Positions 7,529-64,000 of a stretch of DNA of 64,000 nucleotides are shown piece by piece (positions within the stretch are counted from its first letter, which is position 1; every line of letters starts with the position of its first letter). The notes under the pieces were generated by a model that was not told the origin of the DNA, searched no databases, and saw only the letters and a program-made list of their open reading frames with translations. The stretch is from the NCBI GenBank assembly GCA_963666565.1, contig OY762911.1:2368001-2432000 (forward strand), given 5' to 3'. Source of the stretch: Thermoanaerobaculia bacterium (GTDB lineage: Bacteria; Acidobacteriota; Thermoanaerobaculia; Multivoradales; Multivoraceae). The translations under genes and the position numbers were made by a program.

Positions 7529-8842
7529 GTGGCGGACACGCTCAGACAGCGGGCGGAGGAGATCTTCCGCGCAGGCGTCGCCGCCGCCGACCCGCAGGCG
7601 GCCACCGCCGCGGCACTCGGCGAGCTCGACCTGCAAGCCGGGCCAGACGGCCGGACGGCGGCGTTCGCGGTGGGGAAGGCGGCGTTCGGCATGGCCGAAG
7701 CCGCCGCCGCGGCGCTCGGCGACCGCCTCCGGGCCGCCGACGCGCTGCTCGTCACGCATGACGAAGCGGTCCGCCTCGGCCGCTTCGAGGCCCTGCGTTC
7801 GGGACATCCGCTGCCGGACGAACGGGGCCTCGCCGCGGCCCGGGAAGTCGAACGGCGGGCCGCCGCGCTGGGCCGCGGCGACCTGGCCCTGGTCCTGATC
7901 TCGGGCGGCGCTTCCGCGCTGCTGCCGGCGCCGGTCCCGGGCATCGCTCTGGCCGACAAACTGGAGACCACCCGCCTGCTTATCCGCGGCGGCGCGACGA
8001 TCCACGAGTTGAACGCGGTGCGCAAGCACCTCTCGACGACCAAGGGCGGCGGGTTGCTGCGGCAGTTGCGCCCGGCGCGCGTCGTGACGCTCGCTCTGTC
8101 GGATGTCATCGACGACGATCCGTCGGCGATCGGCAGCGGTCCGACGGCGCCCGATCCGTCGACCTTCGAGGACGCCCTCGACGTGTTCGCCCGCCGCGGT
8201 GCGCTGGACACGTGCCCGGCGCCGGTGCGGGAACGGCTCGAGGCGGGCGGTCGCGGCGAGCTGGAGGAGACGCCGAAGCCGGGCGACTCCATCTTCGACG
8301 AGGCGGTCTACCGGATCGTCGGCGGCAACCGGACCAGCGTCGGGGCGATGGTCGCGGCCTGCGGCGACGGCGTCGAGGTGGAACCGGCACCGCTCGAAGG
8401 CGAGGCCCGCGACGTCGGCGCCAAGCTGGCGAGGCGGTTCGCCGGCGCGCCTCCGCCGGCCGCCTGGGTCGGCGGAGGCGAGACGACCGTCACGGTGCGC
8501 GGCGCGGGCAAGGGAGGCCGCAACCAGGAACTCGCCCTCGCCTTCGCGCTCGAAGCGGCGAAGGGCCCGCTCGGCGGCCAGCCCGGCTGGGCGTTCCTCG
8601 CCGCCGGCACGGACGGGCGCGACGGCCCCACGGACGCCGCGGGCGGCCTCGTCGACGCCTCGACGGTCGAGCGCATGCGGACCGCCGGCGTCGATCCGGT
8701 CGCCGCGCTCGCGGACAACGACTCCTACCGCGCCCTCGACGCCGCCAGCGCGCTGCTCCGCACGGGCGCGACCGGCACGAACGTTGCAGATATCTTCGTG
8801 TTCCTGTCCAGGACATTCGCGGGCAAGGGTGCGCGGGTCTGA
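7529..8842 (+). CDS. Glycerate 2-kinase / hydroxypyruvate reductase (DUF4147 + MOFRL)
   Basis: GHPLPDE, LISGGASAL, ELNAVRKHLS..KGG, SDV...IGSGPT, GGETTV, GGRNQE, GTDGRDG, TGTNVAD. GTG 7529 is the likely start; stop lies inside a degenerate REP half (8827-8842). Confidence 0.92.
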   Translation: MADTLRQRAEEIFRAGVAAADPQAATAAALGELDLQAGPDGRTAAFAVGKAAFGMAEAAAAALGDRLRAADALLVTHDEAVRLGRFEALRSGHPLPDERGLAAAREVERRAAALGRGDLALVLISGGASALLPAPVPGIALADKLETTRLLIRGGATIHELNAVRKHLSTTKGGGLLRQLRPARVVTLALSDVIDDDPSAIGSGPTAPDPSTFEDALDVFARRGALDTCPAPVRERLEAGGRGELEETPKPGDSIFDEAVYRIVGGNRTSVGAMVAACGDGVEVEPAPLEGEARDVGAKLARRFAGAPPPAAWVGGGETTVTVRGAGKGGRNQELALAFALEAAKGPLGGQPGWAFLAAGTDGRDGPTDAAGGLVDASTVERMRTAGVDPVAALADNDSYRALDAASALLRTGATGTNVADIFVFLSRTFAGKGARV

Positions 8843-8978
8843 GATCCGTCCGCCCGAGGACGGGCGCTCGGACTGTGACGCGACTGGCGCGGGGACGCGC
8901 CTACCGGGTTCCGACCCGCATAGGGTTTCTCGGGCGGCATTCGCCTGTATGGGAGGATTCGGAGTGAAGAGAGAGAGC

Positions 8979-61205: not shown

Positions 61206-62399
61206 ATGGGGACGTCGAAGCAGTTGCGCGTAGGCATCGTCGGCGCGGGATTCCTCGCGGAAACCAGGGCGCGCTGCTGGAGACAGGTCGTCTCGGCCCA
61301 GGTCGCCGGCGTCGCGTCGCGCCGGCGCGAGCGGGCGGAGGAGTACGCACGGAGCTTCGGCGTGCCGGCCGTGTTCGACGACCTCGACGCCATGCTGGCG
61401 AGCCCCGACATCGACGTCGTCGACCTCTGTGTCCCGAACAGCCTCCATCGGGAGATGACCGAAGCCGCGGCCGCGGCCGGCAAGCACGTCATCTGCACGA
61501 AGCCCCTGACCGCGTACACCGGCCAGGATCTGCCGGCGGACGCGAGCGACGGGGAGGTCGCGGCTCGCGACCGTCGCGAGATGCTGCGGGTCGCCGAGGC
61601 CGACGCACGGGCCATGGTCGTCGCCGCCGCACGCGCCGGCGTACAACTTCTCTACGGCGAGAACTGGATTTACGCCCCGGCCTTTCGCCGCGCCCTCGGC
61701 CTGCTCGAGAAGGCCGACGCCGTGCTGCTCGAGATGCGCGGCGGCGAGTGCCACAGCGGCTCGCACTCGCCGTACTCGCGGGTCTGGCGGCATACCGGCG
61801 GCGGCGCCCTGATCCGGCTCGCGGCGCACCCGGTCGGCGCCATGCTGCACCTGAAGCGCGCCGAGGGCCTCCGCCGCACCGGCGCGCCGGTCCGCCCGGC
61901 CTGGGTCAGCGCCGACACCGCCGACCTGAGCGCCGTCGCCGGCGTGCCGGCGGACGAACTCCGCATCGCCGGGGAATGGGGCGAGGTCGAGAACTGGGGC
62001 TGCCTCACGATCGGCTTCGACGACGGTTCCCGCGCCGTCGCCTGGGGCGGCGACCACGTCCTCGGCGGCATGGAGAGCAGCCTCGACCTGTTCGCCAGCA
62101 ACTGCCGCTTGCGCCTCTCCCTGAGCCCGAACGACATGCTCCGCGCCTACGCCCCCGACGGCGGCGTCTTCGGCGACGCCTACATCATGGAGAAGATCGA
62201 CTCCGGCGCCGGCTGGACGACTCCGATGCCGGACGAGGACTGGACCTCGGGCCAACTCGGCATGTGCCAGGCGTTCGCGGCGAACCTGCTTGGCGGCGAG
62301 ACGGCCGAGTCGGACGGAGAACTCGGCCTGGAGGTCGTGCGGGCGCTGTACGGCGCCTACGTCGCGGCGGCGGAGGGCGGGAGGTTCCCGCTGGCTTGA
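61206..62399 (+). CDS. Gfo/Idh/MocA family oxidoreductase
   Basis: VGIVGAGF, PNSLH, GKHVICTKPL, GGGALI...H. Confidence 0.9.
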   Translation: MGTSKQLRVGIVGAGFLAETRARCWRQVVSAQVAGVASRRRERAEEYARSFGVPAVFDDLDAMLASPDIDVVDLCVPNSLHREMTEAAAAAGKHVICTKPLTAYTGQDLPADASDGEVAARDRREMLRVAEADARAMVVAAARAGVQLLYGENWIYAPAFRRALGLLEKADAVLLEMRGGECHSGSHSPYSRVWRHTGGGALIRLAAHPVGAMLHLKRAEGLRRTGAPVRPAWVSADTADLSAVAGVPADELRIAGEWGEVENWGCLTIGFDDGSRAVAWGGDHVLGGMESSLDLFASNCRLRLSLSPNDMLRAYAPDGGVFGDAYIMEKIDSGAGWTTPMPDEDWTSGQLGMCQAFAANLLGGETAESDGELGLEVVRALYGAYVAAAEGGRFPLA

Positions 62400-62409
62400 C
62401 CCGTGGGGG

Positions 62410-62739
62410 CTACGCCAGCAGCAGCCGGTCCAGCGCCGTCGCGGCAGCCAACAAGGCGCCCACCACCAGCAGCATGCGCCAGGTCAGGTCCGCGCGGAGC
62501 TTCTCCATGTCGGCGCGAATCTCGCCGCGGAGTTCGCCCATCTCGGCGCGCAGGTCGCCGCGCAGCTCGCCCATCTCGGCGCGCAGGTCGCCGCGCAGTT
62601 CGCTCATCTCGGCGCGCAGTTCGGCGTGGTCCCGCGCGCGCTCGGCGCGCATCTCGCGCCGGATCGCTTCGAGCCGCACTGCTGCGTCCGATTCGGTCAA
62701 GAAAGAGGTGCTCCCGGTCTTCGATTCCGTTGCCGTCAT
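62410..62739 (-). CDS. Coiled-coil protein with 11-aa repeats and C-terminal TM anchor (DUF1640/CCDC90-like)
   Basis: ELRAEMS ELRGDLRAEMG ELRGDLRAEMG ELRGEIRADME KLRADLTWRMLLVVGALL; 33-bp DNA repeat. Confidence 0.75.
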   Translation of the reverse strand: MTATESKTGSTSFLTESDAAVRLEAIRREMRAERARDHAELRAEMSELRGDLRAEMGELRGDLRAEMGELRGEIRADMEKLRADLTWRMLLVVGALLAAATALDRLLLA

Positions 62740-62966
62740 TCCGTTTCTCCCGTCGGTGATCGCCCCGCGCAGCGAAACCGCGGCAACGGGGCGATGGTAC
62801 ATGAGACACCGGCCGCGCGGCGTCGCGCGGACCGTCGCGAGCCGACCATTCGGCTCTATGGATCAAGACGGATTCCGGCCGAGTTCCCCGGCGACACGAG
62901 GGCGACGCCGTTGTCGCGTTGCGCCGGAGTCCGCTCGGCGGTCGTCGAAAGACGGTTCCGTCTGGC

Positions 62967-63104: not shown

Positions 63105-63335
63105 ATGACAGTCGTCAACGTTCATGAAGCCAAGACCCAACTCTCGCGGCTGCTGGCTCAGGTCGAGGCCGGGGAGGACGTCGTGATTGCGCGCCGCGGC
63201 GAACCTGTCGTGCGTCTCGTCCGTTGCCGGCCCAAGGTGCGGCGTCAGCCCGACACTCTCAAGGGCCGGGTCGTCGTTCCGGACAGCTTCTTCGATCCTC
63301 TGCCGGACGAAGAGCTTTCCGCCTGGGAACGGTAG
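63105..63335 (+). CDS. Phd/YefM family antitoxin
   Basis: MTVVNVHEAKTQLSRLL..VEAGEDVVIARRGEPVVRLV; GGAGG RBS. Confidence 0.93.
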   Translation: MTVVNVHEAKTQLSRLLAQVEAGEDVVIARRGEPVVRLVRCRPKVRRQPDTLKGRVVVPDSFFDPLPDEELSAWER

Positions 63336-63341
63336 GTCGGC

Positions 63342-63728
63342 GTGAGGGCGCTGCTGGACACCCACGCGCTTCTCTGGTGGGTGGCGGACAGCGCGCGTCT
63401 CTCGGAGACCGCTCGCGGCCTGATTGCCGACGACTCGAACGAGATCCTGGTCAGTGCGGCCTCGGCCTGGGAGATCGCGACGAAGTACCGGCTGGGCAAG
63501 TTGCCGGGAGGCGAAACCGTGGCGGCCGATGTCGTAGGCAGCATCCGGGCACAGGGGTTCACGGAACTCCAGATAAGCGTCGCCGATGCCGAACGCGCCG
63601 GACGCTTGCCCGGGCCGCACCGGGACCCGTTCGACCGGATGCTCATCGCGCAAGCCCTGGCGCGGGACCTGCCGGTCGTGTCGGTGGACGCGATGTTCGA
63701 CCGCTACGCCGTCAACCGGGTTTGGTGA
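63342..63728 (+). CDS. vapC: VapC PIN-domain toxin
   Basis: LLDTHALLWW, VSAASAWEIATK, HRDPFDRMLIAQA, VSVD. Confidence 0.95.
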   Translation: MRALLDTHALLWWVADSARLSETARGLIADDSNEILVSAASAWEIATKYRLGKLPGGETVAADVVGSIRAQGFTELQISVADAERAGRLPGPHRDPFDRMLIAQALARDLPVVSVDAMFDRYAVNRVW

Positions 63729-63736
63729 GTGTCGGC

Positions 63737-63827
63737 CGGTTCATCCCCGCGTGTGCGGGGAAATGCGGGAGGGCAGAGAGGCAGCTTGTTCCGCGAGCGG
63801 ATCATGACCGTGCCGTTGCGGGGGCGG
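63737..63827 (-). CRISPR. Minimal type I-E-like CRISPR unit: near-intact repeat, 32-nt spacer, degenerate repeat
   Basis: Plus strand CGGTTCATCCCCGCGTGTGCGGGGAAATG (63737-63765) matches the I-E repeat family; CGGATCATGACCGTGCCGTTGCGGGGGCGG starts exactly 61 nt later (63798). Confidence 0.65.
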
Positions 63828-64000
63828 TTCGATGCGTTTGGAGTTGGGCCGTCGTTGCGCCTCGTGCGGTTGCTCGCGAGCGCCGCGCCTGCGCCAAGTC
63901 GTAGCTGGCCTGCATCCGCATCCAATGAACGGCGGTTCCCCAACCGATGTCCTCCAGCGCCAGCGCCATCTTCGCGGAGACGCCGGCCCTGCCGTTCAAC
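63802..64000 (-). CDS. higA: HigA-family addiction-module antitoxin (5' end beyond window)
   Basis: LNGRAGVSAKMALALE..GWGTA.HWMRMQASYDLAQAR. Confidence 0.88.
   Translation of the reverse strand, partial: LNGRAGVSAKMALALEDIGWGTAVHWMRMQASYDLAQARRSRATARGATTAQLQTHRTAPATARS

What the first reader, a model, noticed from the sequence alone, without database searches (positions are those of the whole stretch)
63737..63827. Solitary type I-E CRISPR repeat-spacer-degenerate repeat between vapC and higA
Seen: a 29-nt I-E-like repeat 8 bp after the vapC stop, a 32-nt spacer (CGGGAGGGCAGAGAGGCAGCTTGTTCCGCGAG) and a degenerate repeat at the canonical 61-nt period overlapping the higA stop. In I-E orientation it reads on the minus strand, co-directional with higA and antisense to vapC; the degenerate repeat keeps a handle-like ATGATCCG. 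No cas genes in the window and no target found by eye. Known: CreTA/CreR mini-arrays use degenerate repeats to guide Cascade to repress toxin or cas promoters, and solitary repeats can act as RNA anti-CRISPRs. Inference: a crRNA-like regulator coupling protein TA modules to CRISPR-Cas, or a relic array end.
Basis: partly seen in the sequence, partly recalled or inferred. Interest (0 to 1): 0.75.

Follow-up and report, generated by a model that had tools for sequence, protein, structure and literature searches.

The report
Leftover end of a replaced CRISPR array
One CRISPR repeat and one spacer next to a toxin-antitoxin gene are most likely the scar of an older CRISPR array that was swapped for the working CRISPR-Cas system lying just beyond the window, so the feature is real but ordinary.

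Summary
The 29-nt I-E repeat (63737-63765) and the 32-nt spacer (63766-63797) are real and unique in the genome. The "degenerate second repeat" is not a repeat. Only its first 8 nt (CGGATCAT, 7/8) look like one; the other 21 nt are the higA C-terminal coding sequence, also present in a CRISPR-free paralogous higA locus.

The unit is not isolated. A complete I-E system (cas3 to cas2, leader, 43 repeats) starts 2.4 kb past the window end, in the same orientation. The solitary repeat matches that array's repeat ("type A") at only 22/29. It matches at 27/29 a second I-E repeat ("type B") that forms arrays of 20-82 repeats in seven other genomes of the genus. Those arrays have their own divergent cas operon (29-34% protein identity), which this genome lacks.

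In G044 and G011, a type-B array ends next to vapBC homologues downstream of the same core oxidoreductase gene. G044 shows the mirror image: an A-like relic and a hybrid terminal repeat.

No target was found for the spacer, the unit is not conserved, and the intact repeat lies on the wrong side of the spacer for a crRNA-like regulator.

Verdict: scar of a replaced type-B array. Low interest.

The parts
63105..63335 (+). vapB-like antitoxin gene (Phd/YefM family). It is part of the conserved flank that borders the CRISPR site.
   Evidence: PF02604 at E 1.9e-10 and TIGR01552. Orthologues of 75-88% aa identity lie next to I-E arrays in G013, G004, G009, G044 and G023.
63342..63728 (+). vapC-like PIN-domain toxin gene. 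Its stop codon lies 8 nt before the solitary repeat.
   Evidence: PF01850 at E 6.7e-18. Orthologues of 79-93% aa identity are found in relatives.
63737..63765 (-). Intact type I-E CRISPR repeat of the genus's 'type B' variant. It is the trailer-most repeat of a lost array.
   Evidence: 27/29 to the type-B consensus and 22/29 to the resident type-A repeat. 7-bp hairpin of -14.3 kcal/mol. Unique in the genome.
63766..63797 (-). 32-nt spacer, the last spacer of the lost type-B array.
   Evidence: The length fits the 61-nt period of type-B arrays. There was no match at up to 3 mismatches in 42 genus genomes other than itself, and no exact match in viral contigs. The best own-genome match was 23/32, within the 22-25 range of shuffled spacers.
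63798..63805 (-). Stub of the next repeat (CGGATCAT on the + strand, 7/8 to the repeat's first 8 nt). It marks the breakpoint where the type-B array was cut and joined to the higA 3' end.
   Evidence: Homology to the CRISPR-free paralogous higA locus starts at 63802. First 8 nt score 7/8 and the last 21 nt score 8/21, against 7/21 in the paralogue. G023 shares the ...CGAG|CGGA junction followed by a higA-tail remnant.
63802..64000 (-). 3' part of higA (115 aa; it runs to 64149, beyond the window). It is an orphan antitoxin gene: an IS copy sits upstream of it, and of higB only about the last 17 codons remain.
   Evidence: TIGR02607 HigA at 66 bits. It is 89% identical in DNA to a paralogue at 4.55 Mb that has an intact higB. 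The IS and the higB remnant are shown.

Best explanation
The unit is a non-functional scar: the trailer-most repeat, the last spacer and a 4-8-nt stub of the next repeat of a former 'type B' I-E CRISPR array.

Two divergent I-E cassettes exist in this genus. Type A has the repeat GGGTCTATCCCCGCGGGTGCGGGGGAACC. Type B has CGGTTCATCCCCGCGTGTGCGGGGAACGG. Their Cas1, Cas7 and Cas3 are only 29-34% identical. Both types occupy the same chromosomal neighbourhood in different species: downstream of a core Gfo/Idh/MocA oxidoreductase gene, and in several species next to vapBC.

An ancestor of this genome carried a type-B array whose trailer end abutted vapC, as G044 and G011 still show. Recombination then cut that array inside its second-to-last repeat. 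In its place now lie a higBA module, later hit by an IS and by a higB deletion, and the resident type-A array and cas operon.

Shown: the identity of the repeat, its position, the absence of type-B cas genes, the alternative occupancy of the site, the breakpoint, and the lack of any target.

Inferred: the order of events, and that the unit has no present function. It probably lies in the 3' untranslated tail of the higA transcript, and the resident Cas6e might cut at its hairpin. Neither point was tested.
For: (1) Repeat type. The repeat is 27/29 to type B and 22/29 to the resident type A. At up to 3 mismatches, type B occurs in 12 of 42 genus genomes, G000 included. It forms arrays of 20-82 repeats in 7 of them.

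(2) Cas genes. G000 has one Cas7e locus and one Cas6e locus, both in the type-A operon. Type-B arrays have their own operon: Cas1 is 33-34% identical to ours, Cas7 32% and Cas3 29%. G004 carries both systems.

(3) Position. The unit lies 2.65 kb beyond the trailer end of the 43-repeat type-A array, in the same orientation.

(4) Same site, other cassette.
- G044: oxidoreductase (89% aa), vapB (76%), vapC (79%), 0.8 kb, then a B-like array of 82 repeats.
- G011: oxidoreductase (88%), vapB/vapC fragments, then a type-B array with its trailer toward vapC, then type-B cas genes.
- G002: oxidoreductase, 5.5 kb, then a type-B array.
- Type A sits near the same oxidoreductase in G000, G013, G045 and G053.
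- The oxidoreductase is present in 41 of 42 genomes, mostly as one match.

(5) Mirror-image scar. G044 has a degenerate A-like solitary repeat 290 nt beyond its B-like array, and a hybrid terminal repeat with an A-type start and a B-type end.

(6) Relics of 1-4 repeats are common in the genus.
- Type B: G019 (1), G020 (2) and G045 (2). In G019 and G020 the relic is fused to a truncated DEDDh exonuclease gene that normally lies beyond cas3.
- Type A: G023 (1), G055 (1) and G050 (4).

(7) The surroundings are decayed: higB is reduced to about 17 codons, and an IS present in 6 copies at 99% identity sits between it and higA.

(8) There is no target and no conservation.
Against: - The repeat is remarkably intact: hairpin and 3' handle are perfect, and only 2 changes lie at its spacer-side end. 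Yet the junction seems shared with G023, whose vapBC is only 83% identical in DNA and whose corresponding stretch looks decayed. That could hint at selection on the repeat in G000. However, the homology of G023's 44 nt to the repeat is uncertain.
- Five relatives with orthologous vapBC (G004, G013, G009, G020, G005) show no repeat after vapC. The type-B stage is therefore inferred from only two genomes (G044, G011) plus the scar itself.
- Expression and Cas6e processing were not tested, so lack of function is an inference.
Confidence: 0.85

Rival explanations
1. It is a regulatory crRNA-like element (of the CreA, crlRNA or mini-array kind). Transcribed with higA on the minus strand, it would be loaded into the resident Cascade and repress a TA or cas promoter through partial complementarity.
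For: A complete I-E system lies 2.65 kb away in the same orientation. The stem of the solitary repeat (CCCCGC/GCGGGG) is identical to that of the resident repeat. Two TA modules flank the unit. Mini-arrays with one degraded repeat and nearby TA cargo are described for I-E loci (passages of PMC10120712; passages of bioRxiv 10.1101/2024.12.27.630466).
Against: - In the described mini-arrays, the well-kept repeat lies upstream of the spacer and supplies the hairpin and 5' handle. Here the intact repeat is downstream, and the upstream 'repeat' is an 8-nt stub without a hairpin, inside higA coding sequence.
- The repeat is type B, not the resident type A. Four of the 8 handle bases differ (ATGAACCG against ATAGACCC).
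- No target was found. The best genome match is 23/32, the same as shuffled spacers. Local 10-nt seed hits (11 non-self hits in 29 kb; shuffles give a mean of 4.2 and a maximum of 48) never exceed 15/32, and none follows AAG or ATG.
- Treating the 32 nt 3' of the intact repeat as the guide also gave nothing.
- The spacer is absent from 41 of 41 other genus genomes.
- No promoter-like site was found in L001 1000-4500.
Confidence: 0.05
2. It is a solitary-repeat decoy or an RNA 3'-end element. The hairpin, in the 3' tail of higA mRNA (or as its complement in the vapBC mRNA), would bind Cas6e or stabilise the convergent transcripts. That would link TA expression to Cas6e levels, or titrate Cas6e as RNA anti-CRISPRs do.
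For: The hairpin is strong and intact (-14.3 kcal/mol). It sits 8 nt after the vapC stop and 36 nt after the higA stop, between convergent genes. RNA anti-CRISPRs that mimic repeats are known (PMC10651486; listing and start of abstract only).
Against: - It is chromosomal and not in a recognisable phage or plasmid.
- It mimics the absent type-B repeat better than the resident one.
- No T-tract follows the hairpin on either strand, and the terminator scan did not call it.
- It is not conserved next to vapC in 5 of 5 relatives with orthologous vapBC that were read.
Confidence: 0.05
3. It is a new mini-CRISPR made by off-site spacer integration by Cas1-Cas2 at a repeat-like sequence after vapC.
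For: The spacing is exactly 61 nt and the spacer is 32 nt. Cas1-Cas2 is present nearby.
Against: - Off-site integration duplicates the local pseudo-repeat, so both copies should be alike. Here they share 15/29, and 21 nt of the second copy are pre-existing higA sequence.
- The first copy is a near-perfect repeat of a foreign (type-B) system rather than a local pseudo-repeat.
Confidence: 0.03
4. It is a chance GC-rich palindrome, not CRISPR-derived.
For: The genome is 70% G+C and rich in hairpins. Four other isolated CCCCGC-N(3-6)-GCGGGG cores exist in the genome.
Against: 27 of 29 positions match a repeat that forms arrays in 7 relatives. No other genomic site comes within 7 substitutions. The other isolated cores share no flanking similarity.
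Confidence: 0.01

Closest known systems
Orphan or relic CRISPR repeats left after loss or replacement of a CRISPR-Cas module. Examples recalled, not read here: residual repeats and one-spacer arrays at the E. coli I-E loci.
   Same: One to a few repeats without their own cas genes, at the trailer side of a CRISPR site. No detectable target. A breakpoint lies inside a repeat. The neighbouring genes are decayed.
   Different: The relic belongs to a different I-E variant from the working system beside it. It therefore documents a swap between two I-E cassettes at one site rather than a simple loss.
Regulatory mini-arrays and crRNA-like RNAs: CreA of CreTA (recalled), crlRNAs (bioRxiv 10.1101/2024.12.27.630466, passages read), and I-E mini-arrays of Shmakov et al. 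(PMC10120712, passages read).
   Same: A repeat, a spacer-length gap and a degraded repeat close to a type I cas locus, with toxin-antitoxin genes nearby.
   Different: The good repeat is on the 3' side of the spacer, whereas the described elements keep the 5' one. The repeat type is not that of the resident array. There is no PAM-flanked partial target, no positional conservation and no promoter of its own.
Solitary repeat units acting as RNA anti-CRISPRs (Racrs; PMC10651486, listing and start of abstract only).
   Same: A single repeat with an intact hairpin outside an array.
   Different: Racrs lie in viruses or other mobile elements and mimic the host's own repeat. This unit is chromosomal and mimics an absent system better than the resident one.

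Membership tests
Type I-E CRISPR repeat (type-B variant of this genus) | 29 nt with a CCCCGC-N4-GCGGGG stem-loop and an ATGAACCG-like 3' handle, near-identical to repeats that form arrays with a 61-nt period. | tested here: met
   27/29 to the repeat of arrays in G011, G004, G048, G002, G054 and G050. Hairpin of -14.3 kcal/mol.
Functional CRISPR array | At least two full repeats flanking each spacer. | tested here: not met
   The second copy is an 8-nt stub. Its other 21 nt score 8/21, against 7/21 in a CRISPR-free paralogue.
Functional CRISPR array | Cognate cas genes in the genome. | tested here: not met
   Only one Cas7e locus and one Cas6e locus exist, both of the type-A operon. Type-B Cas proteins are 29-34% identical to these.
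Functional CRISPR array | A leader upstream of the first repeat. | tested here: not met
   Upstream on the minus strand is the higA coding sequence, whose stop codon lies inside the stub.
Regulatory mini-array / crlRNA / CreA | The upstream (5') repeat is well kept and has a hairpin that yields the 5' handle. | tested here: not met
   The upstream copy has no repeat hairpin (-5.6 kcal/mol in a different fold). The intact repeat is 3' of the spacer. The criterion comes from passages.
Regulatory mini-array / crlRNA / CreA | The spacer shows seed-anchored partial complementarity (about 10-16 nt) to a nearby promoter, next to a PAM. | tested here: not met
   No hit scored above shuffled controls and none was preceded by AAG or ATG. 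The PAM of this system is not known, and short targets elsewhere cannot be excluded.
Regulatory mini-array / crlRNA / CreA | Position and sequence conserved in related CRISPR-cas loci. | tested here: not met
   The spacer is in 0 of 41 other genus genomes. No repeat follows vapC in G004, G013, G009, G020 or G005.
Regulatory mini-array / crlRNA / CreA | A Cascade-dependent small RNA is produced. | not testable with these tools
   No RNA run was listed.
RNA anti-CRISPR (Racr) solitary repeat unit | Encoded on a phage, plasmid or other mobile element, and mimics the resident repeat. | tested here: not met
   It lies between chromosomal TA genes and is flanked by a core oxidoreductase gene found in 41 of 42 genomes. 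It is 22/29 to the resident repeat and 27/29 to the absent type.
Neo-CRISPR from off-site spacer integration | Two near-identical copies of the local pseudo-repeat flank the new spacer. | tested here: not met
   The copies share 15/29, and the second is pre-existing higA sequence.

The most novel reading that the evidence does not exclude
The type-B scar may have been kept because the resident type-A Cas6e still recognises its intact hairpin. Cutting or binding at the 3' tail of the orphan higA transcript, or pairing of the complementary vapBC 3' tail with pre-crRNA repeats, would then make antitoxin or toxin mRNA stability depend on Cas6e. That would tie TA modules to the CRISPR-Cas locus without any DNA target.
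Probability: 0.05. Interest if true: 0.6.

Novelty: new member of a known kind. Interest (0 to 1): 0.15.

Why it matters
As a feature it is ordinary: a decayed end of a CRISPR array. It does mark clearly that two strongly diverged I-E cassettes have replaced one another at one chromosomal site in this genus. There are reciprocal scars (a B relic beside an A system here, an A-like relic and a hybrid terminal repeat beside a B-like system in G044). This fits recombination within or near the repeats, which share 21 of 29 bases. It also warns against reading 'mini-arrays' near TA genes as regulators without checking repeat type, orientation, conservation and targets.

Tried and rejected
- Spacer target searches found nothing beyond chance. 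These covered the genus genomes at up to 3 mismatches, viral contigs for an exact match, the own genome ungapped against shuffled spacers, and local seed searches for both possible guides.
- An Rfam scan of L001 1000-4700 at E up to 1 gave only two sub-threshold, unrelated hits and no CRISPR family.
- The promoter scan found 0 sigma-70-like sites. The terminator scan did not call the repeat hairpin.
- The look-up of sequencing runs listed no RNA holder, so expression is untested.
- Read laying on four contig-type runs of one study showed contigs bridging the unit. Its 'joints' 1760->4415 are cross-mapping of CRISPR repeats. Its joint 822->1802 is the paralogous locus at 4.55 Mb. Neither is a variant of this locus.
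- I first took the gene beyond cas3 (L001 16216-16887) as an independent chromosomal flank shared with G011. Searches showed that it is a DEDDh/RNase_T exonuclease gene travelling with both cassette types. I dropped it as a flank marker and used the oxidoreductase and vapBC instead.
- Pfam and NCBIfam gave no family for the 573-aa IS ORF (only a weak AbiEi_4 hit of 18.6 bits, below cut-off), nor for the small ORF next to the array.
- Whether G023's 44 nt after vapC are a decayed copy of the repeat remained inconclusive.
- Structure prediction, complex prediction, the search for homologous proteins and the atlas were not used, because no open question needed them.

Full report
**Coordinates**

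The window is G000:C1:2368001-2432000. Locus L001 is G000:C1:2430001-2449000, so an L001 position equals the window position minus 62000.

**Observation**

The window's last 300 nt contain the following:
- a PIN-domain gene ending at 63728, preceded by a Phd/YefM antitoxin gene;
- 8 nt of gap;
- the 29-mer CGGTTCATCCCCGCGTGTGCGGGGAAATG at 63737-63765;
- 32 nt (63766-63797);
- the 29-mer CGGATCATGACCGTGCCGTTGCGGGGGCG at 63798-63826;
- a HigA gene on the minus strand (TIGR02607), whose stop codon is at 63802-63804.

The first 29-mer occurs once in the window, against 0 in shuffles. It is unique in the genome at up to 7 substitutions, apart from the array described below. Read on the minus strand it has the canonical I-E form, with a 7-bp hairpin of -14.3 kcal/mol. 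Contigs from four public runs of one study bridge vapC, repeat, spacer and higA with 0-4 differences. The arrangement is therefore present in those assemblies too, although the runs may be the source of this assembly.

**The second 'repeat'**

It matches the first at 15/29 at exactly the 61-nt offset. Only 0.4% of genomic 29-mers reach that score. The signal is not spread evenly, however: the first 8 nt score 7/8 and the other 21 nt score 8/21.

A paralogous locus at 4.55 Mb carries a coiled-coil gene directly abutting a higA copy that is 89% identical. The homology to that copy begins at window 63802, the higA stop codon. The paralogue has no CRISPR context, yet the same 21 nt there score 7/21 against the repeat. 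The second copy also has no repeat hairpin.

The 'degenerate repeat' is therefore a stub of 4-8 nt (CGGA, or CGGATCAT if the TCAT shared with the higA stop region is counted) fused to the higA 3' end. In other words, it is a breakpoint.

**What lies beyond the window**

From genome position 2434415, which is 2,415 nt past the window end, runs an array of 43 repeats of GGGTCTATCCCCGCGGGTGCGGGGGAACC with a 61-nt period. On the minus strand there follow a leader and then cas2, cas1, cas6e, cas5, cas7, cse2, cse1 and cas3. The leader is at the high-coordinate end. The solitary unit therefore lies 2.65 kb beyond the array's trailer end, in the same orientation.

Between the unit and the array lie:
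- higA;
- a 1.87-kb insertion sequence, present in six copies at 99% identity;
- about the last 17 codons of higB;
- a small ORF.

Family searches find only this one I-E system in the genome.

**Two repeat types**

The solitary repeat matches the resident ('type A') repeat at 22/29. It matches CGGTTCATCCCCGCGTGTGCGGGGAACGG ('type B') at 27/29.

At up to 3 mismatches, type B occurs in 12 of 42 genus genomes, G000 included:

| Genome | Type-B repeats |
|---|---|
| G044 | 82 (a GGGT-loop variant) |
| G002 | 55 |
| G048 | 53 |
| G054 | 36 |
| G004 | 30 |
| G050 | 26 |
| G011 | 20 |
| G018 | 3 (at a contig edge) |
| G020 | 2 |
| G045 | 2 |
| G019 | 1 |
| G000 | 1 |

Type A occurs in 11 of 42 genomes.

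Type-B arrays have their own cas operon. Its Cas1 is 33-34% identical to ours, Cas7 32% and Cas3 29%. G004 carries both systems, with two Cas7e loci; G048, G002, G054 and G050 have one each. G000 lacks the type-B operon.

**Same site, alternative cassettes**

The Gfo/Idh/MocA oxidoreductase gene at window 61206-62399 is a core gene, present in 41 of 42 genomes at E below 1e-80. Its neighbourhood in other genomes is as follows.

- G044: the order is oxidoreductase (89% aa), about 6 kb, vapB (76%), vapC (79%), 0.8 kb, then the trailer end of the 82-repeat B-like array.
- G011: contig C125 reads oxidoreductase (88%), vapB/vapC fragments, a type-B array with its trailer toward vapC, then type-B cas1, cas7 and cas3.
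- G002: the type-B array starts 5.5 kb after the oxidoreductase.
- G019 and G020: relics of 1 and 2 type-B repeats lie 12-15 kb from it.
- Type-A systems lie within about 4-15 kb of the same gene in G000, G013, G045 and G053.
- Orthologous vapBC is followed by a type-A array in G013, G004 and G009.

In several other genomes the CRISPR locus and the oxidoreductase gene are far apart (G048, G050, G054, G009, G047). The association is therefore frequent but not universal.

I first counted the gene beyond cas3 as a second shared flank. It turned out to be a DEDDh/RNase_T exonuclease gene that accompanies both cassette types, so it is not independent evidence.

**Reciprocal scars and other relics**

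G044 has a degenerate A-like solitary repeat, TCATCCATCCCAGCGGGTGCGGGGGAACA, about 290 nt beyond the trailer of its B-like array. Its terminal repeat is a hybrid with an A-type start (AGGTCTAT) and a B-type end.

G019 and G020 share a site where 1 or 2 type-B repeats are fused to a DEDDh gene truncated at about residue 85. This means that a deletion removed the cas operon. G045 has 2 type-B repeats near a cas3 fragment. G023 and G055 each have one perfect type-A repeat about 175 nt from a higA homologue. Relic repeats are thus common in this genus.

**History inferred**

A type-B array once ended next to vapC, as in G044 and G011. It was cut within its second-to-last repeat, and the higBA module plus the type-A system now occupy its place.

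G023 is the closest relative at vapBC (VapC 93% aa). After vapC it has 44 nt of uncertain relation to the repeat, then ...CGAG|CGGA and a 65-nt remnant of the same higA tail, then an unrelated gene. This suggests that the junction predates the split of the two species.

Five relatives with orthologous vapBC (G004, G013, G009, G020, G005) have no repeat after vapC. In G005, G009 and G020 the higA stop lies about 12 nt from the vapC stop.

**Tests of the regulator reading**

- The spacer has no match at up to 3 mismatches in the 41 other genus genomes, and no exact match in viral contigs.
- Its best ungapped match in the own genome is 23/32. Twenty shuffled spacers gave maxima of 22-25.
- Within 29 kb around the locus, 10-nt seed matches (up to 1 mismatch; 11 non-self hits; shuffles give a mean of 4.2 and a maximum of 48) extend to at most 15/32. 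None follows AAG or ATG.
- Taking the 32 nt 3' of the intact repeat as the guide gave no better result.
- The described regulatory mini-arrays keep the upstream repeat, place the seed next to it, match the resident repeat and are conserved in position (passages read). None of these holds here.
- No promoter-like site was found.
- No RNA data were available.

**Verdict**

The repeat and spacer are genuine CRISPR material, but they are a scar of cassette replacement, not a solitary regulator. What remains open is whether the resident Cas6e still binds the intact hairpin in the higA 3' tail.

Noticed in passing
L001 2164-4035 (window-equivalent 64164-66035); other copies at G000:C1 130132, 2129449, 2194481, 3152978 and 4483696: A 1.87-kb insertion sequence is present in six copies at 99% identity. 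Its ends are CTAGACTCC... and ...CGTTAG. This copy sits exactly at the higB stop codon, between the higB remnant and higA. Its 573-aa ORF has no Pfam or NCBIfam family (only a sub-threshold AbiEi_4 hit). G023 and G034 carry relatives.
   Followed up: partly
L001 4027-4100, and G000:C1:4549001-4552000 (L014): Only about 17 C-terminal codons of higB remain (...RFEDAVDVDLIDYH*), so higA here is an orphan antitoxin gene. An intact higBA pair lies at 4.55 Mb; its higA is 89% identical to this one, and it sits next to a paralogue of the coiled-coil gene at window 62410-62802.
   Followed up: partly
L001 16216-16887 (+), divergent from cas3: A DEDDh/RNase_T exonuclease gene (PF00929) accompanies both type-A and type-B I-E cassettes (found in 23 of 42 genus genomes, with two copies in G004). 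Truncated copies are fused to relic repeats in G019 and G020. A fragment lies between the oxidoreductase and vapBC in G046, which has no array.
   Followed up: partly
L042 (G044:C12:20801-30200, reverse strand), positions 8579-8607 and 8868-8896: There is a degenerate A-like solitary repeat beyond a B-like array. The terminal repeat is a hybrid of an A-type start and a B-type end. Together these suggest recombination between the two repeat types.
   Followed up: partly
L039 (G023) and L040 (G055) around position 1501; flanks of type-B arrays in L024, L028, L032 and L034: Perfect solitary type-A repeats in G023 and G055 are followed by gtcaatggcaacc(a/g)aaaa. This is the reverse complement of the motif (ttttcggttgccattgac) that flanks the trailer of type-B arrays in G004, G019, G020 and G048. 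It may be a shared recombination or mobile-element end.
   Followed up: no
L001 4361-4405 (window-equivalent 66361-66405): Two direct copies of C(A/T)(C/G)TTTCTGAGCGA lie about 10 nt from the trailer-most repeat of the resident array. The first forms a hairpin that the terminator scan called. Their function is unknown.
   Followed up: no
window 62410-62802 (-), against its paralogue in L014: The coiled-coil ORF has degenerate tandem repeats of about 24 nt (EMGELRGDLRA-like peptide units). It differs from its paralogue by two 12-nt indels.
   Followed up: no
L016 (G013), trailer end of the array, about position 2589: The trailer-most repeat of G013's type-A array is degenerate (AGGTCTATCTCCGCGTGTGCGGGGAACCA) and has the GTGT loop of type B. 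In contrast, G000's trailer-most type-A repeat is perfect, which suggests that G000's array was truncated at its trailer end.
   Followed up: no
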